The notes under the pieces: generated by a model | The model's input: only the letters and a program-made list of their open reading frames with translations | What the model was told of the DNA's origin: nothing | Databases searched by the model: none | From: Escherichia phage vB_EcoM-P3322 | DNA: 64,000 nt | Strand: one strand, 5' to 3' | Sequence record: PV191315.1 | Shown here: in pieces, positions 23,929 through 38,070 of the stretch | Layout of the letters: each line of letters starts with the position of its first letter | Position numbering within the stretch: position 1 is the stretch's first letter | Program-made: the position numbers and the translations under genes

Positions 23929-24173
23929 TCGACGAGCTTGCCTCTCAAGTCATAGAAAATTATTGGCGCGAGAGAGAAGCTTTCATTATGCGCAGTCTCA
24001 AAGAGTATTTCATTGGGACTGTGCGAATGGAAGATATTGTAAGTAGAGTAGAGATTCATGTATGGCCTGATTATGAAGAATGGGTTGACAAAGAAAATGA
24101 AAATGCTATAATTCTTCGTATATACAAACCGGAGATAACATTAGGAGGAAGAAGTGTTAAACTTCGAAATTGA
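23925..24173 (+). CDS. hypothetical protein
   Basis: Track ORF 82 aa; ATGA overlap. Confidence 0.45.
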   Translation: MIDELASQVIENYWREREAFIMRSLKEYFIGTVRMEDIVSRVEIHVWPDYEEWVDKENENAIILRIYKPEITLGGRSVKLRN

Positions 24174-24438: not shown

Positions 24439-25041
24439 ATGACTGATAAAATTTCCCTGAAAAAAGGCTCTAGCGAAAAAATTTCCCTGAAGAAAGTTGC
24501 TCCGGCTCTGAAAGAACTGCGCCTGGAATTCTCTTGGAAATCTGATTCTAAACTGGATCTGGATGTAAGTGCACTGGTTTGTCGTCATAATGCCGCTGGC
24601 AATCCTGAAATGTTGTCTGCACGTCATCTGGTTTGCTATGCTAACAAGTTTGATCCTGAACGTTCTACCTTCGCTGGTGACGATGTTCGTGATGGAACTG
24701 GTAGCATGGAGCAGATTGATATTACTCTGGCTAAAATCTCTCCTGATGCACAAGAGATTGCCTTTGTTCTGACCATTGATGATGATACAGGTCTGAAACG
24801 TTTTGGTCATGCTTCTGAAGGTATGCTTAAAATCTTCGACTCCGAGCGCAATGTGGAAATTCTGGATTTTGACTTCCTGGCTCCTGAAGTAGCTGGCAAC
24901 ACAATCTGCCACGTGGCTTCCTTGGTTCGTGAAGATGGGGAATGGAAGCTGAAAGCATATGGTGTAGGTAAAGCTGGTCTGGATATTTGTGATGTGGTGA
25001 TGGCCTTCGGTGGTAAAAAAGAATGGTATGAATGTCCATAA
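24439..25041 (+). CDS. TerD-domain protein
   Basis: N-terminal KISLKKG..EKISLKK, central Ca-binding-type AGDDVRDGTGS, C-terminal EWKLKAYGVGKAGL all fit TerD; strong host-like codon bias. Confidence 0.65.
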   Translation: MTDKISLKKGSSEKISLKKVAPALKELRLEFSWKSDSKLDLDVSALVCRHNAAGNPEMLSARHLVCYANKFDPERSTFAGDDVRDGTGSMEQIDITLAKISPDAQEIAFVLTIDDDTGLKRFGHASEGMLKIFDSERNVEILDFDFLAPEVAGNTICHVASLVREDGEWKLKAYGVGKAGLDICDVVMAFGGKKEWYECP

Positions 25042-28566: not shown

Positions 28567-29511
28567 ATGGGACAAATAATTCTTGACAATCGTAACGGAA
28601 TCAATTATAGTGTCTGCGATTTCCATAGGGTAGTGCTGCCTTACTCAAGGCAGTTCTCTTCACAACCTAAACACAACGTTTTCGTTTTTAACGGGGTGCC
28701 AACAAAAGGTAAAGAGGGCTTTTTAGCCCTTAAAAACCTAGGCTTTAAAATGGTTATGGATTTGGATGACTCTTTAGTTATTCCAAAAGGACACATGTTA
28801 GAAGGTATTTTTGAATCAGGTATTCGTGAACATTTAAAATGGTTTTTAGAGCACAGCGATCTCGTTACAACTACGACACCTGCTTTGCAAGTTGAACTTT
28901 CACAATACAATGATAATGTGCACATAATCCCTAATGGACTTCCTTACGATGAAGGTCAATTTGTGTTGACCCGTGATCGCTACTCCAAAACTCCATTAGT
29001 CTGGGCTGGAAGTGAAACACATAAACAAGACTTGGCTATCTTGCCCGATTTTGGTAAAGATCTTACAATATGTGGTTTTCGTAGGGATTCTGAAGTTTTA
29101 AGTAGTCGTGAATGGTCTGTGATCAGAGAAAATGTAGCACCAACTTGTGTTTATGAAGGTGTAAGACCATATGCCAACTACATGGAATCTTACGATGGTC
29201 ATCAAATCAGTCTTGCGCCATTGATTGATAACGTGTTTAATAATGCAAAAAGCAATCTTAAAATTCTTGAGGCAGGTGCTAAGGGTTTACCTTTGATCTG
29301 TTCTCCTCGTGAGAATTATCATACACAAGAGTTTAAAGATTTGTTATTCTTTGCTGAAACACCTTCCGAGTGGAAAGATATTACGGAATACTTATTAAGT
29401 GCTCCCGATGTTTGCATGGAGAAAGGATTAGCATTAGCTAAGTATGTCAGGACTCATTATCACATTGATGTGTTGAATGAGCGTCGTAGACTTTTATTTG
29501 AGGAGCTATAA
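28567..29511 (+). CDS. glycosyltransferase, GT-B fold, paralog 2
   Basis: 314 aa; NNAKSNLKILEAGAKGLPLICS; collinear similarity to 27609..28559 (CD(Y/F)HR(I/V)V.P, VVWAG/LVWAG). Confidence 0.45.
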   Translation: MGQIILDNRNGINYSVCDFHRVVLPYSRQFSSQPKHNVFVFNGVPTKGKEGFLALKNLGFKMVMDLDDSLVIPKGHMLEGIFESGIREHLKWFLEHSDLVTTTTPALQVELSQYNDNVHIIPNGLPYDEGQFVLTRDRYSKTPLVWAGSETHKQDLAILPDFGKDLTICGFRRDSEVLSSREWSVIRENVAPTCVYEGVRPYANYMESYDGHQISLAPLIDNVFNNAKSNLKILEAGAKGLPLICSPRENYHTQEFKDLLFFAETPSEWKDITEYLLSAPDVCMEKGLALAKYVRTHYHIDVLNERRRLLFEEL

Positions 29512-29801: not shown

Positions 29802-31580
29802 GTGTCGCACATTATAACTAAATATGGATTTGATGTTGATCTTAGCAAGGAAGGACATACAGGTTGTCCGCGCTGCATGAAAAATGGCAAGGATCGCTCT
29901 CGTAATAACCTGATGGTTTATGGATTAGATTCTAATGGAGAGCATAAAGGTGCTAAGTGCTTTGCGTGTGAATACACTATTCCTAGCGTAGAATGGTTAC
30001 GAGAAAATGGTGAAGTTTTAGAAGAAGAGGAGGAGATTGTGGGTTCGGAATTTAATAAACAGATTCATCGTAAAATTGTTCAAGAAACATCAACCAACCC
30101 ACGTGGTTATCGAGGCATTAAAGAAAAAGTTTCATCTTTCTATGGTGTTCGTTATGAATACCGCCAGGAAGGGGATCAGATGGTAGTAGAAAGTTGTTTA
30201 TATCCAACTACTATCGGTAAAGAATTAGTTGGTTTTAAGCGTCGTATTCATCCTAAAGATTTCAGTAAACCTATTGGTCAAGTAGGTAAAGATGTAGATC
30301 TTTTTGGACAAATTCGTTTTGCAGACCGTTCTCATACTGTGGTAATTACAGGTGGTGAACACGATGCTCTGGCAGCTTATCAAATGCTGTCTGAAAACTT
30401 GGACAACAAATATGAACTTCCAGCAGTAGTTAGTGGCACAACTGGTGAAACCAGTATGTATAAACAAGTTCAGGCACAATATCCTTTCTTTGAAAAATTT
30501 AAGAAGATTATTGTTTGCATGGATAATGACAAAGCAGGTAATGAGGCATTTGAAAATATTGTTAAGGTGTTGCCTCGTAACAAAGTCTACCGTATGCAGA
30601 TGGATCTTAAGGATGCCAATCAGTATCTGGAAGAAGGTCGTGCAAAAGATTTCGTAAAAGCTTTTTGGAGTGCTCGTCTATACACCCCAGCAGGTGTTTA
30701 TGCTTCTAATGTCTTGTATGAAGCTGCATTAGAATGCTTGGAATCCAAGATGATTACCTTGCCTCCTTTTATGCGTGTTGCTGCAAATATGCTGGGTGGT
30801 GGTTTAGTAGAGGAAGAGATTACAGTTATCCTGGCGAAGACCAGTATCGGTAAAACTTTGATGGTGAACGAGATCACCAAACATATTATTGTTGCGCACC
30901 CAGAACATACCCTAGGTATTCTGTCCTTGGAAGCAACTTATAAGAAATATTCTCGTAACCTGTTGTCCTCGTTCCTGCATATTCCTCTACACAGGAAAAC
31001 ACCGGAAGAGAAATTTCAAATCTTGGAAGAGAATAAAGAAAAAATCCTAGATTTTTACGAAAGAGAAGATGGATCACCACGTTTTTATGTGTGTGATGAT
31101 CGTGGAGCAGATGTGGAGTCTATCAAAGAAAAAGTTTTGGAGATGATCATCTATTTTGGAGTAACAATTCTTGTTATCGACCCTTATTCTGATTTGCTTT
31201 CTGGTATGGATGTTCAAGCCCAGGAAGAGTTAGCAACATGGTTGAAGCGCATCATGAAAGAGTATGCTATAACTATTATTGTCATCTCACACGTTAAGAA
31301 ATCGGCTAATGGTGGCAATGAACACTTAACAGAGGACGATGCAATGGGTAGTAGTTTCTTGGCTAAAGGTGCTGGTATTACCTTGGCTTTGGAACGAGAT
31401 AAAGCCGCTGAAGACCCTGTAGAACGCAATACGACTCATTGCTTTATCCTAAAAAACCGTGAGTTCTCAGAAACTGGTCCGGCAGGGCAGTTTTACTATG
31501 ACATTAGAACTGCAACTCTGCATGACAAAGAGCAGTATTTCAACAATCCTGCTAATTTGCCTACGGATAGCAACTATTAA
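29802..31580 (+). CDS. bifunctional DNA primase-helicase (T7 gp4-like)
   Basis: N-terminal zinc ribbon CPRCMKNGKD...CFACEY; TOPRIM-like VVITGGEHDALAAYQ and CMDNDKAGNEA; helicase Walker A AKTSIGKT and Walker B-like LVIDPY. Confidence 0.7.
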   Translation: MSHIITKYGFDVDLSKEGHTGCPRCMKNGKDRSRNNLMVYGLDSNGEHKGAKCFACEYTIPSVEWLRENGEVLEEEEEIVGSEFNKQIHRKIVQETSTNPRGYRGIKEKVSSFYGVRYEYRQEGDQMVVESCLYPTTIGKELVGFKRRIHPKDFSKPIGQVGKDVDLFGQIRFADRSHTVVITGGEHDALAAYQMLSENLDNKYELPAVVSGTTGETSMYKQVQAQYPFFEKFKKIIVCMDNDKAGNEAFENIVKVLPRNKVYRMQMDLKDANQYLEEGRAKDFVKAFWSARLYTPAGVYASNVLYEAALECLESKMITLPPFMRVAANMLGGGLVEEEITVILAKTSIGKTLMVNEITKHIIVAHPEHTLGILSLEATYKKYSRNLLSSFLHIPLHRKTPEEKFQILEENKEKILDFYEREDGSPRFYVCDDRGADVESIKEKVLEMIIYFGVTILVIDPYSDLLSGMDVQAQEELATWLKRIMKEYAITIIVISHVKKSANGGNEHLTEDDAMGSSFLAKGAGITLALERDKAAEDPVERNTTHCFILKNREFSETGPAGQFYYDIRTATLHDKEQYFNNPANLPTDSNY

Positions 31581-31599
31581 GGGCTTCGGCCCTTTTATT
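31581..31599 (+). terminator. rho-independent terminator
   Basis: GGGCTTCGGCCC hairpin followed by TTTTATT directly after primase-helicase stop. Confidence 0.65.
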
Positions 31600-31610
31600 A
31601 AAAATACCTG

Positions 31611-31639
31611 TTGACAACTTTACGGAAGAGACTTATACT
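31611..31639 (+). promoter_or_regulatory. strong candidate sigma70-type promoter (TTGACA-N17-TATACT)
   Basis: Near-consensus hexamers with optimal spacing, about 30 nt before 31673. Confidence 0.55.
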
Positions 31640-31672
31640 TGTCTCATCAACCAAACAAGAGGAGAAGTAAAA

Positions 31673-32104
31673 ATGCGTATGACAATCGATCTGAATGCAA
31701 AAGTTAAAGCTGCTGGTGCTCTGGGTGCTGGTGTTATTAAACACAAACAAGCGTTGGCATTTGCCATCCCACATATGATTGTTGAGGATCATCCTGAAGA
31801 GTTTGCTGTAAAAGTTGTTGAGAACAATGTCTCTGTTATTGAACATCTTCCAACTGGACGTTCTTACCGTGTTGTTTCTTCTAAAGGTTTCCGTTTCGAT
31901 GTAAGCCCTTCTTTCACAAAAGGTGCTGGTCGTAGTAAAGTGGGTATTCTTTCTTACAAATATTATATCGATAAAGTTGCAGATGGTGTCGCATTCTGTC
32001 GTGTAAGTGAAGGTAAAGTAGATATCATCTTTAAAAATACCAAAAACATGGTTATTTCTGACGATGGTAAAGTTGACCTCACTATTGAGTTCGCTAACAA
32101 CTAA
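31673..32104 (+). CDS. hypothetical protein, expression-optimised (143 aa)
   Basis: SD AGGAGAAG; heavy CTG/GGT/GCT/CGT codon usage like TerD and SSB genes; strongest promoter in window. Confidence 0.6.
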   Translation: MRMTIDLNAKVKAAGALGAGVIKHKQALAFAIPHMIVEDHPEEFAVKVVENNVSVIEHLPTGRSYRVVSSKGFRFDVSPSFTKGAGRSKVGILSYKYYIDKVADGVAFCRVSEGKVDIIFKNTKNMVISDDGKVDLTIEFANN

Positions 32105-32113
32105 GGAGGACTA

Positions 32114-32908
32114 TTGAGCAAGTTGAATACACTTGATCAATATTACACTAACCCCGCTTATGCGGGGTTCTTATGTGATAAGATCAAAGAAATTTTTGGA
32201 GAGGAAGCTAACTACGTAGAACCATCTGCGGGAGAAGGAGCTTTCTCTTCTTGTTTTAAAAACATAACTTCTTTTGATATTGACCCTAAGTTTGAAGATT
32301 GTATTGAGGCAGATTTTTTAGCTCAATCTGTTGAGTCTGTTGGCAGTGTAACTGCTTTTGTCGGTAATCCTCCGTTTGGAAAAAATGCTAGTCTTGCCAT
32401 TAAGTTCTTTAACCATTGTGCTGAAATGTTGGATAACGAAGGTGGTATTTGTTTTATCTTGCCTCGCACATTTCAAAAAATCTTTTTTGCACACAAACTA
32501 AATCCCCACATGCATCTTCTTTACGAAGAAGAATGTCCAAAAGGATCTTTTATTCTTCATGGGGAACCTTGGGATGTTCCTTGTGTATTCCAGATATGGA
32601 TTAAACGCAACGAGAAGCGTTCTCCCGTTGTTTTAGGAGAGAATAGACTGTTCGTATTAGGTAACAGTAAAGACTACGATATAGCCGTTAGGAGAGCGGG
32701 AGCAAGTGCAGGTAAAGTGTTATCAGAAGAAGATTCTTTATCTGAAGCATCTACCTACTTTTTAAAAGCCTTGACTTCTGATCTTAAAACACGTATCATT
32801 GAGGCTTACCCGTTACTTAAAGCTGAAGCTAGTAAAACTGCGGGAGTAAGAAGTTTAAGTTTAAAAGAACTTCAGTGGGTTCTGGAGAACATTAGAAAGG
32901 AGGAATAG
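32114..32908 (+). CDS. DNA N6-adenine methyltransferase-like protein
   Basis: 264 aa; catalytic-type FVGNPPFGKN; N-terminal YYTNP..AGFLCD consistent with AdoMet-binding region; TTG start after AAGGAGG. Confidence 0.5.
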   Translation: MSKLNTLDQYYTNPAYAGFLCDKIKEIFGEEANYVEPSAGEGAFSSCFKNITSFDIDPKFEDCIEADFLAQSVESVGSVTAFVGNPPFGKNASLAIKFFNHCAEMLDNEGGICFILPRTFQKIFFAHKLNPHMHLLYEEECPKGSFILHGEPWDVPCVFQIWIKRNEKRSPVVLGENRLFVLGNSKDYDIAVRRAGASAGKVLSEEDSLSEASTYFLKALTSDLKTRIIEAYPLLKAEASKTAGVRSLSLKELQWVLENIRKEE

Positions 32909-35505
32909 TGAGTAAGTTTACATGGGATATTGAAGCAAACGGATTGTTGAATAATGACACTATTGATTATTTAGCTAGTCCTTATCGTCTCAAAGACACA
33001 TTTCAAATGCACTGTATTGTCTTAGAGAACCATGAAACAGGAGAAATAGTAGCTTTCCACGATGGCCCTAAATACATCTTTGATGGGCGTCCTTATGAAG
33101 AGTCAGATGGTAAATACACATATGTTCTTAAAGAGTATGTGGCGCAAGATTACACACATTTTCAACTAAAAGATTTCCCAGATTTTATTAATCATGAAGG
33201 TTATTTTAAAGACAAGCCTGAATATCTGGTTGAAATGGCTGTGGCTCACAACGGTATCAACTACGACTGGTTGGCTACAAAACTGTTTTATGGATTAGAT
33301 TACAGTGTTAAATATAATACGTGGGGCAAAAATAAGGTAAAACTTATTGACTCTTTGATTTTGAGTAAAGTGTTAAACCCAGATAGAAAGATTGAGGGCA
33401 AATCAGGACATAGTTTGGCAGCACTTTCTCGAAAAGCAGGTGGTGATGTAAAAATAGATTTCCGTAAAGAGATTCCAGAAGAAGATCGATTTAAGACTTT
33501 TGCTGCGGATATGCTTTATTACTGTATCTATGACAACAAAGCCAATACGAGCGTATATAATTACCTTATGGAAGAATGGGGTGATTATGATAAATGGGAA
33601 GGTCCATTTGAACTTGAACAACGTGTAGCAGACATTATTACACGCCAGGAACACCGTGGGTTTGCTTTTAACATGAAACAAGCAGAAGAGAACCTTGCTT
33701 TTTTGGATGCAGAAATGGAGCGTCTTCGTTTACTCGTTGAGCCTATTTTGCCACCTAAACCAGCAACAAAAGGTTATCTTAAGGCTTTTATTCCACCTAA
33801 GTTGCAAATTAAAAAGAACTTAGAGCCAACTAACCATATGATCAATTTTGCTAAGAAACACGATGGTCATTTGGAAGAGAGGGATGGCGATTGGTGGTTA
33901 GTTATGTTGGGGAAAGAGTGGAAACTGCCAGTTGCAGCAGATGAACCTCTATGTGATCCTAACATCCCTGCAACATTGAACGATACAACCCATATTAAAA
34001 ACTGGCTTGTAGGATTAGGTTGGGTACCGTCTGAATATAAAGATAAAGACTTGACTCTTAAATCTGGCACCAAGATTAAAAAGAGCGAGGAAGAACTTCA
34101 GAAAGGTATTCGAGCTTACGTTGAGCAAACTCTATCTTCTAATTTTTGTCAGGATCGTTGTGATCATCTGGAGTGCACACCGGAAACCCTGGAAAGGAAG
34201 ATTCAAGAGCGTATAGCAAAAGGTAAAGGTCGCGGTCTTAAAGTATTGACTAACCCATGTTTTACCAAAGGTCAGGAAAAAGAAATTTGTCCTAACCTGC
34301 AAGCTTTGGGTGAGAAGTTTCCTTATGCTACACAGATTGTAGAATACTTAACGTATAAGCATCGTAGGAACTCTATTTTAGGTGGCGGTGCTGATTGGGA
34401 AGAAGACGAAGAAGATCAAGAATACGATAAAGGTTTCTTAGCCGCAGTAAGGGCGGATGGGCGTATTCCTACCCCAGCCGCTACATGTGATGCTGCAACC
34501 TCTCGTATGAAGCATAGATCTGTAGCTAATATTCCTCGTGTCACATCTTTGTTTGGATGGGAGATGCGTAACTTGTTTGGTGTAGAAGTTCCTAAATACT
34601 TCCAGATCGGCTACGACTTCGACTCTTTGGAAGCAAAAATTGAATCACACTACTGTTGGCGGTACGAGCCGGAGCCACACGAATATTGTAACGCTCTGTT
34701 GTTAGAGAAACCTAACGATGTTCACACAATGATGGCAAAACGTATCACTGAAACTATTGGACGTAAATTTGAACGTAGTCCTGCTAAATCTGTTAAGTAT
34801 GGTATTACCTATGGTGCACAAGCCGACAAGGTTGCTAAAACAATTGGTAGCGATAAGTTTACAGGTCAATTGGTGTTTGATGCTTTCTGGGAAGCTGCAT
34901 TCCCATTGGCGCGTCTTAAAGAACGTTTAAACGATTTCTGGGTTAAGACTGGTAAACAATATGTTTTGGGTATTGACGGTCGTAAGGTTCCTACTCGTTC
35001 TGCTCACGCGATTCTTAACTCTCTGTTCCAAAGTGGTGGGGTTATCTGTGCTAAACGTGCAATGGTTATTTATGACGACATGATCGAAGAAGAAGGACTA
35101 AGTGTTGACTTCTTTAAAGATGACTGGAAGAATAAAGACTTCGTACAACAAATGATTGCATATCACGATGAAGCCCAGCTTGAAGTTTCTCGTAACCTTG
35201 TAGAATTCAAATGGTTTTCACCTGAATCGTTAGGTTGGAAGAAAGTGGACGATCCTGAAGAACAAAAGAAAATTGATAAAGAATGCCTTGCTAAAGTTGA
35301 AGAATGGAAGCATAATAAGGAAAAAGAGACGGGGCAAATTTGGGCTAACATTCATGAATCTCCCAAAGGTGGATGGTTTACAGCTTATAGTCGAGCAGGA
35401 GAACTTGCTGCTTTAGCTGTTACTAAAGCCGGAGAATTCTACAATCTTAATGTTCAGCTTACTGCTGGATATGATGTGGGTAACTCCTGGGCCAGTTGTC
35501 ACTGA
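32908..35505 (+). CDS. family A DNA polymerase with 3'-5' exonuclease domain
   Basis: Exo I FTWDIEANGL; motif B RSPAKSVKYGITYGAQ; motif C IAYHDEAQLEV; GTG start after GGAGGAA. Confidence 0.8.
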   Translation: MSKFTWDIEANGLLNNDTIDYLASPYRLKDTFQMHCIVLENHETGEIVAFHDGPKYIFDGRPYEESDGKYTYVLKEYVAQDYTHFQLKDFPDFINHEGYFKDKPEYLVEMAVAHNGINYDWLATKLFYGLDYSVKYNTWGKNKVKLIDSLILSKVLNPDRKIEGKSGHSLAALSRKAGGDVKIDFRKEIPEEDRFKTFAADMLYYCIYDNKANTSVYNYLMEEWGDYDKWEGPFELEQRVADIITRQEHRGFAFNMKQAEENLAFLDAEMERLRLLVEPILPPKPATKGYLKAFIPPKLQIKKNLEPTNHMINFAKKHDGHLEERDGDWWLVMLGKEWKLPVAADEPLCDPNIPATLNDTTHIKNWLVGLGWVPSEYKDKDLTLKSGTKIKKSEEELQKGIRAYVEQTLSSNFCQDRCDHLECTPETLERKIQERIAKGKGRGLKVLTNPCFTKGQEKEICPNLQALGEKFPYATQIVEYLTYKHRRNSILGGGADWEEDEEDQEYDKGFLAAVRADGRIPTPAATCDAATSRMKHRSVANIPRVTSLFGWEMRNLFGVEVPKYFQIGYDFDSLEAKIESHYCWRYEPEPHEYCNALLLEKPNDVHTMMAKRITETIGRKFERSPAKSVKYGITYGAQADKVAKTIGSDKFTGQLVFDAFWEAAFPLARLKERLNDFWVKTGKQYVLGIDGRKVPTRSAHAILNSLFQSGGVICAKRAMVIYDDMIEEEGLSVDFFKDDWKNKDFVQQMIAYHDEAQLEVSRNLVEFKWFSPESLGWKKVDDPEEQKKIDKECLAKVEEWKHNKEKETGQIWANIHESPKGGWFTAYSRAGELAALAVTKAGEFYNLNVQLTAGYDVGNSWASCH

Positions 35506-37182: not shown

Positions 37183-38070
37183 ATGTCCGTAATTAATACT
37201 GAAACTGATCGTAAAGGCAAAACCGTAACTTATGCAACTGGTATCGTAGACTACGTTAAACTGGATAAATTCGCTGAACCTAAAACTTTTCATTGGGAAG
37301 GAAAAACGATTGTTTCAACTCACCGAGCCTCTCTTGTTCTGAAAGAGAAAGGTGCTAAACCAGATGAGAAAGGTGTTTGGATTTCTCTTGGTGACATTGA
37401 ACTGAAAGAAGGTTATGAAAACCTGCAAGTCAAAGAAGGTGATAATTGGATCACTATTGAAAAAGGTGTAGAAGTAAGTATTGATATTGATCGCGTTGAT
37501 AATAAAGGCGGTAAAACTTACTACAATACTAAAAAATCTCGTATTACAGTATTGTCTACCGATGGTGTTCAGAAGTCTAACAAATCTTCTGGCAATAAAG
37601 GTTCCAACGATGCTGCTCCTAAGCAGTCCTATAAAAAACGTGATACTGTAGGTCTGGAAACTGGTCACGCAGTAAATGGTGCACTGGAACTGATTCGTAA
37701 TGGTGTTAAAGGCGATGCTTTCGATATCGCTGGGGTTGTTCAATCTGCAACTGTCACACTGAAATCTGAAATTGCTGAATCTCGTGGCGTTGATATTAAT
37801 GATTATGATCTTGGGGCATCTGTTGGTCACGCTATTCTCAATGCTTGTAAAGACCATACCATTAAGACTGTCTCTGTAGAAGATCTGATTGATTCTGCTC
37901 GTAAAGTTCTGGCTCTGTCTGATAAAGTTGCTGCTGCCATTCGTGGTTCCGCAGAACAGCCTAAGAAAGAAGAGAAGAAAGAAGTTAAGAAACCTGAACC
38001 ACAACCAGAACCAACTCCAAGTAATCAAGAAGAACCTCCAATGGACTTCGACGATGATATTCCATTCTGA
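37183..38070 (+). CDS. single-stranded DNA-binding protein-like, with E. coli SSB-type C-terminal tail
   Basis: 295 aa; last residues PMDFDDDIPF match the conserved E. coli SSB tip; Pro/Glu/Lys-rich linker before it; host-like optimal codons; SD AGAGGAG. Confidence 0.5.
   Translation: MSVINTETDRKGKTVTYATGIVDYVKLDKFAEPKTFHWEGKTIVSTHRASLVLKEKGAKPDEKGVWISLGDIELKEGYENLQVKEGDNWITIEKGVEVSIDIDRVDNKGGKTYYNTKKSRITVLSTDGVQKSNKSSGNKGSNDAAPKQSYKKRDTVGLETGHAVNGALELIRNGVKGDAFDIAGVVQSATVTLKSEIAESRGVDINDYDLGASVGHAILNACKDHTIKTVSVEDLIDSARKVLALSDKVAAAIRGSAEQPKKEEKKEVKKPEPQPEPTPSNQEEPPMDFDDDIPF

What the first reader, a model, noticed from the sequence alone, without database searches (positions are those of the whole stretch)
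31611..32104. Unknown 143-aa protein with the strongest promoter and host-optimal codons
The gene is isolated by a strong terminator upstream, has the best promoter in the window (TTGACA-N17-TATACT) and uses CTG/GGT/GCT/CGT codons like TerD and the SSB gene, implying very high expression. No motif is recognisable. It sits just upstream of the methyltransferase and polymerase genes, so it could be an abundant DNA-binding or replication accessory protein.
Basis: seen in the sequence. Interest (0 to 1): 0.45.

Follow-up and report, generated by a model that had tools for sequence, protein, structure and literature searches.

The report
Catalytically dead restriction-enzyme relative in phage
The strongly expressed "unknown" 143-aa gene of this phAPEC8-like E. 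coli phage is a distant relative of a small restriction enzyme that has lost all four cutting residues but stays joined to its partner DNA methyltransferase. Phage genomes that carry it are depleted of, or entirely lack, the sequence GTAC, which suggests a non-cutting DNA-site binder aimed at unmethylated (host) DNA.

Summary
The window is a Phapecoctavirus (phAPEC8-like) genome. The ORF at 31673-32104, its promoter, its terminator hairpin and its codon bias (CAI 0.50, rank 2 of 82) are real. The promoter is not uniquely the best in the window and was already annotated in GenBank. The gene is also not isolated downstream: it abuts the methyltransferase (MTase) gene, which overlaps the polymerase gene.

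A confident AlphaFold model (pLDDT 90.8) has a restriction-endonuclease (PD-(D/E)xK) fold. The gene is joined to the same Type II-like adenine MTase in six phage lineages.

In bacteria, homologous MTases are followed by a small protein that matches a Type II restriction-enzyme model. That protein is homologous to ours (hhalign 93-95%). Its catalytic residues E, D and (D/E)xK are conserved in about 19 of 20 sequences. In all 21 phage proteins they are replaced by Pro, a hydrophobic residue, Lys/Arg and another hydrophobic residue. A P-S-x3-G-x-G-R loop is kept in both families, and dN/dS is about 0.10.

GTAC is the most depleted tetranucleotide in phage DNA carrying this gene (0.28 here). It is absent (0 seen, about 90 expected) in lineages that kept the gene but lack the MTase nearby.

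Best reading (inferred): an abundant, non-cleaving binder of unmethylated GTAC on non-phage DNA. An unconventional active nuclease is not excluded.

The parts
31579..31599 (+). Terminator-like hairpin (AAGGGC-UUCG-GCCCUU) with a U-run, directly after the primase/helicase stop codon
   Evidence: Read in the sequence. The centroid fold is -9.3 kcal/mol. It is annotated as a terminator in MK373788 and conserved in L109. The consensus scanner did not call it.
31611..31639 (+). Sigma-70-type promoter TTGACA-N17-TATACT, preceded by an A/T-rich stretch
   Evidence: 11 of 12 consensus positions. It is annotated as a putative host-dependent promoter in JX561091. The hexamers are conserved in L109 although the spacer differs. 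Analogous promoters occur in L002, L007 and L013.
31657..31666 (+). Shine-Dalgarno sequence AAGAGGAGAA, 6 nt upstream of the ATG
   Evidence: Read in the sequence. GAGGAG is conserved in L002 and L007.
31673..32104 (+). Gene X: 143 aa, 15.6 kDa, pI 9.2. It equals phAPEC8_00189 and belongs to phrog_9938. It has a PD-(D/E)xK fold but lacks the catalytic residues: Pro33, Val55, Arg66 and Val68 stand where relatives have E, D, D/E and K. The conserved loop is P79-S80-x-x-K83-G84-x-G86-R87.
32114..32908 (+). Partner gene M: a 264-aa gamma-class N6-adenine DNA methyltransferase (motif I EPSAGEGAF, motif IV GNPPFG). Its TTG start lies 10 nt after the X stop, with the ribosome-binding site GGAGG overlapping that stop.
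   Evidence: phrog_5172 at 1.7e-110. PADLOC MTase_II PDLC03255 at 1.6e-36. Catalytic motifs are invariant across seven lineages.
32908..35505 (+). Family A DNA polymerase, the third gene of the apparent X-M-PolA transcription unit. Its GTG start overlaps the M stop codon. Listed as context.
   Evidence: PF00476 in relatives. The scanner found no terminator-like site on the + strand between X and PolA.

Best explanation
Gene X encodes a degenerate descendant of a small Type II restriction endonuclease. It is still genetically joined to the cognate-type N6-adenine methyltransferase (M).

**Shown**
- It has a restriction-endonuclease fold.
- It is homologous to a bacterial protein family that matches a Type II restriction-enzyme model and follows M homologues in bacterial genomes.
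- All four canonical catalytic residues are replaced in every phage member.
- A P-S-x3-G-x-G-R loop shared with the catalytic relatives is retained.
- The gene is under purifying selection.
- X and M are tightly or translationally coupled in six phage lineages.
- In this lineage X has its own sigma-70 promoter, a strong ribosome-binding site, and the second-highest codon adaptation in the window.

**Inferred**
- X no longer cuts DNA but still binds the ancestral recognition site. I predict that site to be GTAC, which is the most depleted tetranucleotide in X-bearing phage DNA and is absent in X-bearing lineages that have no M nearby.
- Phage DNA is exempt either through GTm6AC methylation by M or because it has no sites. 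The abundant protein would therefore occupy unmethylated GTAC on non-phage DNA. A 50-kb E. coli sample has about 2.8 sites per kb.
- There it would act as a roadblock or marker, contributing to host shut-off or to exclusion of competing phages.

I put the core claim (a dead restriction-enzyme homologue partnered with the MTase) at about 0.85. I put the non-cleaving binder of non-self DNA mechanism at about 0.4-0.45.
For: **Fold**
- The AlphaFold2 model has pLDDT 90.8 and pTM 0.85.

**Link to the methyltransferase**
- X is followed by M in the window, in L109 and in phAPEC8.
- The genes overlap by 8 nt in Klebsiella phage 05F01 and in marine locus L010, and by 4 nt in a Vibrio phage.
- They are adjacent or overlapping in L012.
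- The order is M then X, with overlap, in Vequintavirus.

**Bacterial relatives**
- An HMM of the X family hits the ORF immediately after the M homologue in L089 (E 5e-5) and L039.
- All 20 members of that family match PADLOC REase_II model PDLC03550, best E 7e-21.
- They follow an M homologue in L039, L077, L089, L104/L105 and L106/L107.
- hhalign of X against this family gives probability 94.6% (E 6.8e-8) and 93.0% (E 3.3e-7).

**Catalytic columns**
- Glu in 19 of 20 becomes Pro in 21 of 21.
- Asp in 19 of 20 becomes a non-acidic, mostly hydrophobic residue, with no acidic residue in any of 21.
- D/E in 19 of 20 becomes K/R in 20 of 20.
- K/R in 20 of 20 becomes a non-basic, mostly hydrophobic residue.
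- The P-S...G-x-G-R loop is kept in both families.

**Selection and expression**
- dN/dS is 0.098.

**GTAC (observed / expected)**
- Window 60 / 217, ratio 0.28, rank 1 of 256 tetramers, z about -10.7.
- Other X-bearing loci: ratios 0.09-0.54.
- X-bearing loci without M: 0 / 89.8, 0 / 80.6, 0 / 22.3 and 0 / 22.4.
- No M lies within +/-10 kb of X in the L023/L024 lineage, or in the 7 kb of sequence held for L013/L014.
- The sister genus (phi92) has no X in the 76 kb examined and a ratio of 0.77.
- Phages with only distant M homologues and no X nearby: 0.61-1.49.
- E. coli K-12 sample: 0.90, about 2.8 sites per kb.
- Bacterial loci carrying the restriction-enzyme relative plus M: 0.40, the lowest of the 16 four-base palindromes.
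Against: - There are no binding, cleavage, methylation or expression data for this protein.
- The recognition site is inferred only from oligonucleotide depletion. Host restriction pressure could cause that depletion independently of X.
- Complete purging of GTAC in the lineages without M is what a cleaving enzyme would impose. A binder might tolerate a few sites.
- Partly conserved acidic positions remain: E38 is D/E in 16 of 21, position 50 is D/E in 15 of 21, position 58 is D in 12 and H in 6, and D76 is D in 14 and N in 6. K83 is invariant. A relocated active site is therefore not excluded.
- In Vequintavirus X has a low CAI (0.21) and no promoter of its own. High abundance is a lineage trait, not a family trait.
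- For the lineages without M, only 7-20 kb around X could be inspected. M could lie elsewhere in those genomes.
- The loci used for GTAC counts are few and are not phylogenetically independent.
Confidence: 0.45

Rival explanations
1. X is an active GTAC-specific nuclease with an unconventional, relocated active site. X and M then form a working phage-borne restriction-modification system. It degrades host or competitor DNA, while phage DNA is protected by methylation or by having no sites.
For: - The fold is that of a restriction endonuclease and X is homologous to a restriction-enzyme family.
- The tight X-M operon resembles a Type II restriction-modification system.
- GTAC is completely absent where no M was found nearby. 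That is the pattern a self-encoded cutter would enforce.
- K83 is invariant and acidic residues are partly conserved.
- PD-(D/E)xK active sites are known to migrate (my own knowledge).
Against: - All four canonical catalytic positions are replaced in 21 of 21 sequences, including Pro for the helix Glu and Lys/Arg for the strand acid.
- No acidic residue is invariant in the phage family, whereas the catalytic relatives keep theirs in about 19 of 20.
- Position 66 alternates between K and R among close relatives.
- X is translated ahead of, and by all sequence signals far more strongly than, a methyltransferase with a weak TTG/GTG start. That is an unusual and risky arrangement for a cutter.
- A catalytic enzyme has no obvious need for top-rank codon adaptation.
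Confidence: 0.2
2. X is an abundant general DNA-binding or replication-accessory protein. It would bind DNA without site specificity or assist the primase-helicase and polymerase. Its link to the methyltransferase would then be historical only.
For: - X lies between primase/helicase and PolA in four Stephanstirmvirinae-like lineages, and it stays there where M is absent.
- Its predicted expression is comparable to the SSB-like gene.
- It is basic, with pI 9.2.
Against: - Outside this clade the gene is not next to primase or polymerase, but it is next to M.
- The sister genus of phi92-like phages has no X in the 76 kb examined, which includes the nucleotide-metabolism region and the polymerase exonuclease subunit. 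X is therefore unlikely to be a core replisome part.
- This idea explains neither the GTAC pattern nor the retention of the loop shared with site-specific enzymes.
Confidence: 0.12
3. X is an anti-restriction factor against host GTAC-cutting enzymes of the same family. It would act either by occupying phage GTAC sites or by forming inactive mixed dimers with the host enzyme, complementing the protective methyltransferase.
For: - X is homologous to a bacterial restriction-enzyme family and co-occurs with a protective-type MTase.
- It has early-type host promoter signals.
- GTAC avoidance indicates selection acting on that site.
Against: - X is retained with the highest CAI and its own promoter in lineages whose sequenced DNA has no GTAC at all. 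Those lineages have nothing to shield.
- X is only about 15-20% identical to the bacterial enzymes over the aligned region, which makes mixed dimers unlikely.
- X cannot protect injected DNA before it is made.
- Vequintavirinae and their relatives are reported as exceptionally susceptible to restriction-modification systems (PMC8594841). No GTAC enzyme is named in the passages I read.
Confidence: 0.08
4. X is a transcriptional or translational regulator of the X-M-PolA operon, acting like a controller protein for the methyltransferase.
For: X is the first gene of the operon and is translationally coupled to M. DNA binding is plausible.
Against: - X is retained and highly expressed where no M was found nearby.
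- Regulators rarely need top-rank codon adaptation.
- No repeated operator-like site was looked for or seen.
- This idea does not explain the GTAC pattern.
Confidence: 0.05

Closest known systems
Small bacterial Type II restriction endonucleases matching PADLOC model REase_II PDLC03550 (150-210 aa), encoded directly after a PDLC03255/03256-type N6-adenine methyltransferase
   Same: - They are homologous to X by profile-profile comparison (93-95% probability over 110-118 columns).
- They have the same gene partner and the same tight or overlapping junction.
- They share the P-S-x3-G-x-G-R loop and the core hydrophobic pattern.
   Different: - They keep the catalytic Glu, Asp and (D/E)xK residues and an invariant DGR motif. 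X has Pro, a hydrophobic residue, K/R and another hydrophobic residue at those positions, and has lost DGR.
- X does not match the PADLOC model at E <= 1.
- In this phage, X sits upstream of M with its own strong promoter.
Engineered non-cleaving restriction-enzyme mutants such as EcoRI E111Q, used as tight-binding roadblocks to replication forks and RNA polymerase (my own knowledge, not checked here)
   Same: A restriction-enzyme scaffold without catalysis. Binding would be blocked by the cognate methylation. The protein is harmful to unmethylated DNA and harmless to methylated DNA. This is the mechanism proposed here for X.
   Different: EcoRI E111Q is a laboratory point mutant. X would be a natural, anciently fixed and heavily diverged version with four substitutions, encoded by a lytic phage. 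Binding by X has not been demonstrated.
Virus-encoded restriction-modification systems, for example the chlorella virus CviQI system (GTAC, with M.CviQI methylating the adenine; cited in PMC2588503)
   Same: A virus carries a restriction-type gene together with an adenine methyltransferase, possibly for the same tetranucleotide. Viral DNA is self-protected.
   Different: The chlorella virus enzymes cut DNA. X lacks the catalytic residues. No sequence relationship between X or M and the CviQI proteins was tested here.
Phage host shut-off proteins that tell host DNA from modified phage DNA, such as T4 Alc and Ndd (my own knowledge)
   Same: The proposed logic is the same: an early or middle phage protein acts on unmodified host DNA and spares phage DNA.
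   Different: There is no sequence or fold relationship. Discrimination in T4 rests on hydroxymethyl-cytosine, not on site-specific adenine methylation or absence of the site.
Structural neighbours: homing endonuclease I-Ssp6803I (2ost), archaeal Holliday-junction resolvase Hjc (2wcw, 1gef), and NhoI, MspI, DpnI and PvuII
   Different: There is no detectable sequence relationship (hhalign against Hjc gives probability 0.3%). Foldseek matches to PDB are not significant (best E 0.07). X has no catalytic motif.

Membership tests
PD-(D/E)xK (restriction-endonuclease-like) fold superfamily | Core alpha-beta-beta-beta-alpha-beta fold | tested here: met
PD-(D/E)xK (restriction-endonuclease-like) fold superfamily | Catalytic residues: Glu in helix 1, Asp at strand 2, and (D/E)xK in strand 3 | tested here: not met
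   The hhalign column mapping to catalytic relatives gives Pro33 (21/21), position 55 non-acidic (0/21 acidic), position 66 K/R (20/20) and position 68 non-basic.
Type II restriction endonuclease family PADLOC REase_II PDLC03550 | Match to the family HMM | tested here: not met
   Four phage X-family sequences gave no PADLOC hit at E <= 1. All 20 bacterial-type relatives match, with best E 7e-21.
Type II restriction endonuclease family PADLOC REase_II PDLC03550 | Homology detectable by profile methods | tested here: met
   hhalign gives 94.6% (E 6.8e-8) and 93.0% (E 3.3e-7). An HMM of the X family hits L089 at E 5e-5.
Type II restriction endonuclease family PADLOC REase_II PDLC03550 | Encoded next to a PDLC03255/03256-type methyltransferase | tested here: met
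   Six phage lineages show adjacency or overlap. The window MTase matches PDLC03255 at 1.6e-36. The MTases upstream of the bacterial relatives match the same models.
Functional Type II restriction-modification system | Methyltransferase with intact catalytic motifs | tested here: met
   Motif I (EPSxGxGxF) and motif IV (NPPFG) are invariant in seven lineages. Activity itself was not tested.
Functional Type II restriction-modification system | Endonuclease that cleaves the unmethylated recognition site | not testable with these tools
   The sequence argues against it, since the catalytic residues are lost. Total absence of GTAC in the lineages without M would fit cleavage. A biochemical assay is needed.
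Functional Type II restriction-modification system | Both proteins recognise the same DNA sequence | not testable with these tools
   GTAC is predicted only from depletion patterns.
Archaeal or phage Holliday-junction resolvase (Hjc) | Sequence-profile relationship and the E/D/ExK catalytic set | tested here: not met
   hhalign against Pyrococcus furiosus Hjc gives probability 0.3%. The Hjc sequence was verified against 1gef. The catalytic residues are absent.
   Pfam, NCBIfam and PHROG give no such match. The fold is nuclease-like, not an OB fold or clamp.

The most novel reading that the evidence does not exclude
Lytic phages of several lineages have domesticated a restriction enzyme into a naturally dead, site-specific DNA clamp. 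The lineages include the very common E. coli Vequintavirus and Phapecoctavirus.

The protein would coat unmethylated GTAC sites on the host chromosome or on competing phage DNA. There it would block replication and transcription. The phage's own DNA would escape either through the linked GTm6AC methyltransferase or, in lineages that lost it, through complete purging of GTAC.

This would be a self/non-self discriminating host shut-off or exclusion mechanism built from a restriction-modification system without cutting.
Probability: 0.3. Interest if true: 0.85.

Novelty: new variant of a known kind. Interest (0 to 1): 0.65.

Why it matters
**What it changes**
- The gene family (phrog_9938) is annotated "hypothetical protein" in the phage records inspected. 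It was found by tblastn in up to 184 sequenced phage records, including genera widely isolated and used for E. coli phage therapy.
- Showing that it is an inactivated restriction-enzyme homologue still bound to its methyltransferase gives it a testable identity.
- It also predicts the methyltransferase specificity (GTAC).
- It offers an explanation for a striking genome signature: GTAC is the rarest tetranucleotide in these genomes, and is absent where the methyltransferase is missing.

**If the binder model holds**
- It would be a natural counterpart of the engineered EcoRI E111Q roadblock.
- It would be a new way for a virus to separate self DNA from host DNA.

**If the protein still cuts**
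- It would define a restriction-enzyme active site unlike the canonical one.

Either outcome is informative. Both can be decided with simple biochemistry.

Tried and rejected
**Searches on X that found nothing**
- Direct family searches (Pfam, NCBIfam, PADLOC) gave nothing. PHROGs gave only phrog_9938, of unknown function.
- A PDB sequence search with the family profile gave nothing.
- Foldseek against PDB was not significant.
- BFVD returned only the protein's own family.
- The afdb50 fold library was unavailable.

**Structure prediction**
- The first AlphaFold run, with 5 close sequences, was poor (pLDDT 50). Its beta-alpha-beta-beta-beta pattern briefly suggested a sliding-clamp-like domain.

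**Catalytic-position mapping**
- My first mapping, by secondary-structure register against Hjc, was off by one residue. The hhalign mapping replaced it.
- hhalign against Hjc itself found nothing.

**Context searches**
- The search for related loci with the X alignment failed because no stretch was conserved enough.
- Plasmid homologues of the MTase were uninformative. One was a fused 538-aa protein in Roseivivax with no similarity to X. One was a Mycoplasmopsis neighbour unreadable under genetic code 11.
- More distant MTase homologues in ph0011, Yersinia phage fHe-Yen9-04, SEP1 and KIL3 have no X nearby.
- The 112-aa ORF that replaces M in the L007 lineage is unrelated to M and to any PHROG.

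**Literature**
- Searches found no paper on this gene or its accession numbers, and no infected-cell proteomics or RNA-seq for these phages.

**Ideas rejected on evidence**
- Anti-restriction shield and operon-regulator ideas were weighed and ranked low. X persists, highly expressed, in genomes with no GTAC and no M nearby.
Full report
**What the window is, and the observation.**

The region is 99.5% identical to Escherichia phage tuntematon and 99.3% identical to phAPEC8 (genus Phapecoctavirus, subfamily Stephanstirmvirinae). The flagged ORF at 31673-32104 (+, 143 aa) is phAPEC8_00189, annotated "hypothetical protein". The motif TTGACA-N17-TATACT at 31611-31639 is already annotated in JX561091 as a putative host-dependent promoter.

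Upstream lies the T7-gp4-like primase/helicase (29802-31580). Downstream lie an N6-adenine methyltransferase (32114-32908) and a family A polymerase (32908-35505).

The promoter scores 11 of 12 consensus positions. It is not unique: the site at 24085 scores 12 of 12, and eight other sites score 11 of 12.

The "terminator" is a 6-bp hairpin with a UUCG loop and a U-run at 31579-31599. Its centroid energy is -9.3 kcal/mol and it was not called by the scanner. It is annotated as a terminator in MK373788.

Codon adaptation is high. CAI is 0.50, rank 2 of 82 ORFs, against a median of 0.26. The bias comes from GGT, CGT, GCT, GTT and TCT. It does not come from CTG, which is only 2 of 6 Leu codons.

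The gene is not isolated downstream. Its TAA stop sits in the GGAGG ribosome-binding site of the methyltransferase, whose TTG start is 10 nt away. The methyltransferase stop overlaps the polymerase start. The promoter therefore probably serves an X-M-PolA unit.

**Family and fold.**

Direct searches give only phrog_9938, of unknown function. The family is small: 5 close relatives, plus about 20 more found by an exhaustive profile search. All are 110-155 aa.

The invariant positions are P33, S80, K83, G84 and R87, with P79 nearly invariant. Together they form a loop P-S-x-x-K-G-x-G-R.

**The conserved partner is the methyltransferase.**

The same methyltransferase family (phrog_5172; PADLOC MTase_II PDLC03255 at 1.6e-36) is directly joined to X in six lineages:

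| Lineage | Arrangement |
|---|---|
| Phapecoctavirus (the window) and L109 | X then M, 10-nt gap |
| Klebsiella phage 05F01 | X then M, 8-nt overlap; public annotation starts M too late |
| Vibrio phages | X then M, 4-nt overlap |
| Marine contigs L010/L011 | X then M, 8-nt overlap |
| Marine contig L012 | X then M, adjacent or overlapping |
| Vequintavirus | M then X, overlapping |

The surrounding genes differ between these lineages. M starts with TTG or GTG (peptide "MSK") wherever it follows X, which suggests translational coupling.

Two Stephanstirmvirinae-like lineages keep X between primase/helicase and polymerase without M. No M was found within +/-10 kb in one, or in the 7 kb of sequence available for the other.

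**Bacterial relatives identify X as a degenerate restriction enzyme.**

I scanned bacterial and archaeal genomes with an alignment of the methyltransferase, which gave 79 loci. An HMM of the X family hit the ORF immediately downstream of the methyltransferase in L089 (E 5e-5) and L039. L077 belongs to the same cluster.

This family was expanded to 20 sequences of 150-207 aa. It has these properties:
- All 20 match PADLOC's Type II restriction-enzyme model PDLC03550, best E 7e-21.
- Members follow a methyltransferase homologue in five independent contexts. One of these is a clearly chromosomal bacterial context next to relA/spoT and sdhA.
- Profile-profile comparison with the phage family gives 94.6% (E 6.8e-8) and 93.0% (E 3.3e-7) over 110-118 columns.

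Both hhalign alignments map the catalytic columns identically:

| Catalytic position | Bacterial family | Phage X family |
|---|---|---|
| Helix-1 Glu | E in 19/20 | Pro33 in 21/21 |
| Strand-2 Asp | D in 19/20 | position 55 V/I/C/A etc.; none acidic |
| First residue of (D/E)xK | D/E in 19/20 | K/R66 in 20/20 |
| Lys of (D/E)xK | K in 18, R in 2 | position 68 mostly hydrophobic; none basic |

An invariant DGR motif of the bacterial family is also lost in X. The P-S-x3-G-x-G-R loop and the hydrophobic core are kept in both families.

The phage protein is therefore a homologue of a restriction enzyme that lacks the canonical active site in every lineage sampled. It is not decaying: dN/dS against a relative that is 81.5% identical across this gene is 0.098, the same as for the methyltransferase at 0.096.

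In bacteria the same methyltransferase family is also paired with a second restriction-enzyme family (PDLC03460) that shows no BLAST similarity to the first. This confirms that these are genuine restriction-modification methyltransferases.

**Expression.**

In the four Stephanstirmvirinae-like lineages X has the highest CAI among its neighbours (0.50, 0.39, 0.53, 0.40). Each is preceded by a sigma-70-like promoter. In L109 the hexamers and the terminator are conserved while the spacer has diverged.

In Vequintavirus X has CAI 0.21 and no promoter of its own. High expression is thus a trait of this clade. It is inferred from sequence only; I found no proteomic or transcriptomic data.

**The GTAC signature.**

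I predicted that a protein still recognising the ancestral site would force lineages without the methyltransferase to lose that site. I then counted palindromes, with expectation taken from a Markov model on shorter words.

| Sequence | GTAC observed / expected | Ratio |
|---|---|---|
| Window (X, M) | 60 / 217 | 0.28; rank 1 of 256 tetramers; z about -10.7; uniform along the window |
| Other X-plus-M loci | - | 0.09-0.54 |
| L023 (X, no M) | 0 / 89.8 | 0 |
| L024 (X, no M) | 0 / 80.6 | 0 |
| L013 (X, no M) | 0 / 22.3 | 0 |
| L014 (X, no M) | 0 / 22.4 | 0 |
| phi92, sister genus, 76 kb, no X and no close M | 218 / 284 | 0.77; rank 20 in the 50-kb locus L110 |
| Phages with only distant M homologues and no X nearby | - | 0.61-1.49 |
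| E. coli K-12 sample, 50 kb | 139 / 154.7 | 0.90; 2.8 sites per kb |
| Bacterial loci with the restriction-enzyme relative plus M | 36 / 90.9 | 0.40; lowest four-base palindrome |

Gamma-class adenine methyltransferases that make GTm6AC, and so block RsaI, are known (M.HpyAXII, M.PabI, M.CviQI; PMC2588503). I therefore predict GTAC as the site of M and of the ancestral enzyme. This is an inference from composition, not a measurement.

**Mechanism.**

Shown:
- X is a catalytically degenerate homologue of a restriction enzyme.
- It is under purifying selection.
- It is coupled to the methyltransferase.
- In this phage it carries strong expression signals.

Inferred: X still binds unmethylated GTAC but does not cut.

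X is retained, with top-rank expression signals, in genomes that have no GTAC and no methyltransferase nearby. Its target is therefore unlikely to be the phage's own DNA. That leaves host or competitor DNA.

Extrapolating the 50-kb sample gives on the order of 10^4 GTAC sites per E. coli chromosome. Stoichiometric binding to that many sites would fit the abundance signals.

The laboratory precedent is EcoRI E111Q, a tight-binding, methylation-sensitive roadblock (my own knowledge).

**Rivals.**

- An unconventional active nuclease is the main rival. The total purge of GTAC favours it. The wholesale loss of catalytic residues, the K/R alternation at position 66, and strong translation ahead of a weakly initiated methyltransferase argue against it.
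- A nonspecific replication accessory protein does not explain the methyltransferase linkage in other neighbourhoods, the absence of X from the examined part of phi92, or the GTAC pattern.
- An anti-restriction shield or decoy would be useless in GTAC-free genomes.
- An operon regulator would not be expected to be retained where M is absent.

**Comparison with what is known, and novelty.**

Catalytically inactive nuclease-fold domains are known in other contexts, and virus-borne restriction-modification systems are known. I found no description of a phage-encoded, anciently inactivated restriction-enzyme homologue kept with its methyltransferase. I also found no link drawn between it and genome-wide loss of a tetranucleotide.

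I class it as a new variant of a known kind. It would be more than that if the roadblock function is confirmed.

**Limits.**

- Everything rests on sequence, a predicted structure and oligonucleotide statistics.
- The loci compared for GTAC are few, short (3-64 kb) and related to one another.
- Absence of M in the two lineages is established only for the sequence around X.
- The site could be depleted because of host enzymes.
- The BASEL study reports these phages as highly susceptible to the restriction systems it tested (PMC8594841). That neither supports nor contradicts a GTAC-specific function.

Noticed in passing
window, whole 64 kb (also L023/L024, L013/L014, L003, L002): GTAC is the most depleted of all 256 tetranucleotides in the window: 60 seen against 217 expected. 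It is completely absent from related contigs that carry gene X but no methyltransferase. A 76-kb sample of phi92 and a 50-kb sample of E. coli K-12 are not depleted.
   Followed up: yes
window, whole 64 kb: Several six-base palindromes are entirely absent although expected several times: CTGCAG 0 seen / 16.3 expected, CGATCG 0 / 9.8, CCATGG 0 / 8.5 and CAGCTG 0 / 8.3. This points to additional restriction-site avoidance, although the phage group is reported as very sensitive to restriction-modification systems.
   Followed up: no
window 24085-24112 (+): This is the only perfect sigma-70 consensus in the window (TTGACA-N16-TATAAT). It lies upstream of a GTG-start ORF and of the TerD-like gene at 24439-25041, which has the highest CAI in the window (0.53).
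   Followed up: partly
window 37183-38070 (+): This 295-aa gene has the third-highest CAI (0.49). Only its C-terminal ~45 residues match an SSB PHROG family; the rest belongs to phrog_4477, of unknown function.
   Followed up: partly
window 32114; L109 998; L002 6419; L003 6399; L010 1907: The methyltransferase always starts with TTG or GTG (peptide MSK...), overlapping or abutting the stop codon of gene X. This implies translational coupling and a low M:X ratio. The public annotations in LC483177 (gene_139/140) and OR712157 (CDS0075) start this gene too far downstream.
   Followed up: partly
L026-L103 (bacterial loci), e.g. L037 3797-4465, L063 3780-4418: In 17 bacterial loci the homologous methyltransferase is followed, mostly with a short overlap, by a different protein of mostly about 200-230 aa. 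The three members I tested match another Type II restriction-enzyme model (PDLC03460) and phrog_6892. One methyltransferase family is therefore paired with at least two restriction-enzyme families that show no BLAST similarity to each other.
   Followed up: partly
L007 6475-6813 (and L008, L009, L023, L024): In one lineage without the methyltransferase, its place between gene X and the polymerase is taken by a 112-aa ORF. That ORF has no PHROG match and no similarity to the methyltransferase.
   Followed up: partly
L004 (MG065635), L025 (JAEZZU010000159), L089 (CAMCQG010000011): Records labelled "Campylobacter phage" (UNVERIFIED) are classified as Vequintavirus in their own taxonomy line. A "Proteobacteria bacterium" MAG contig carries a methyltransferase 100% identical to the window's. 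A contig labelled "Rickettsia typhi" MAG carries the restriction-enzyme relative and methyltransferase pair. These look like mislabelling or contamination of public records.
   Followed up: no
L019 (Salmonella phage SEP1), L018 (ph0011), L020 (Yersinia phage fHe-Yen9-04): Other phages show complete loss of different four-base palindromes: GATC 0 seen / 30 expected in SEP1, and GCGC and GGCC 0 in ph0011 and fHe-Yen9-04. Total purging of a four-base site is therefore not unique to the GTAC case.
   Followed up: no
window 28567-29511 and relatives (L007 1873-2889): Glycosyltransferase-like genes (a weak PF13524 hit in relatives) sit just upstream of the primase/helicase in this phage group. A role in DNA or surface glycosylation was not examined.
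   Followed up: no
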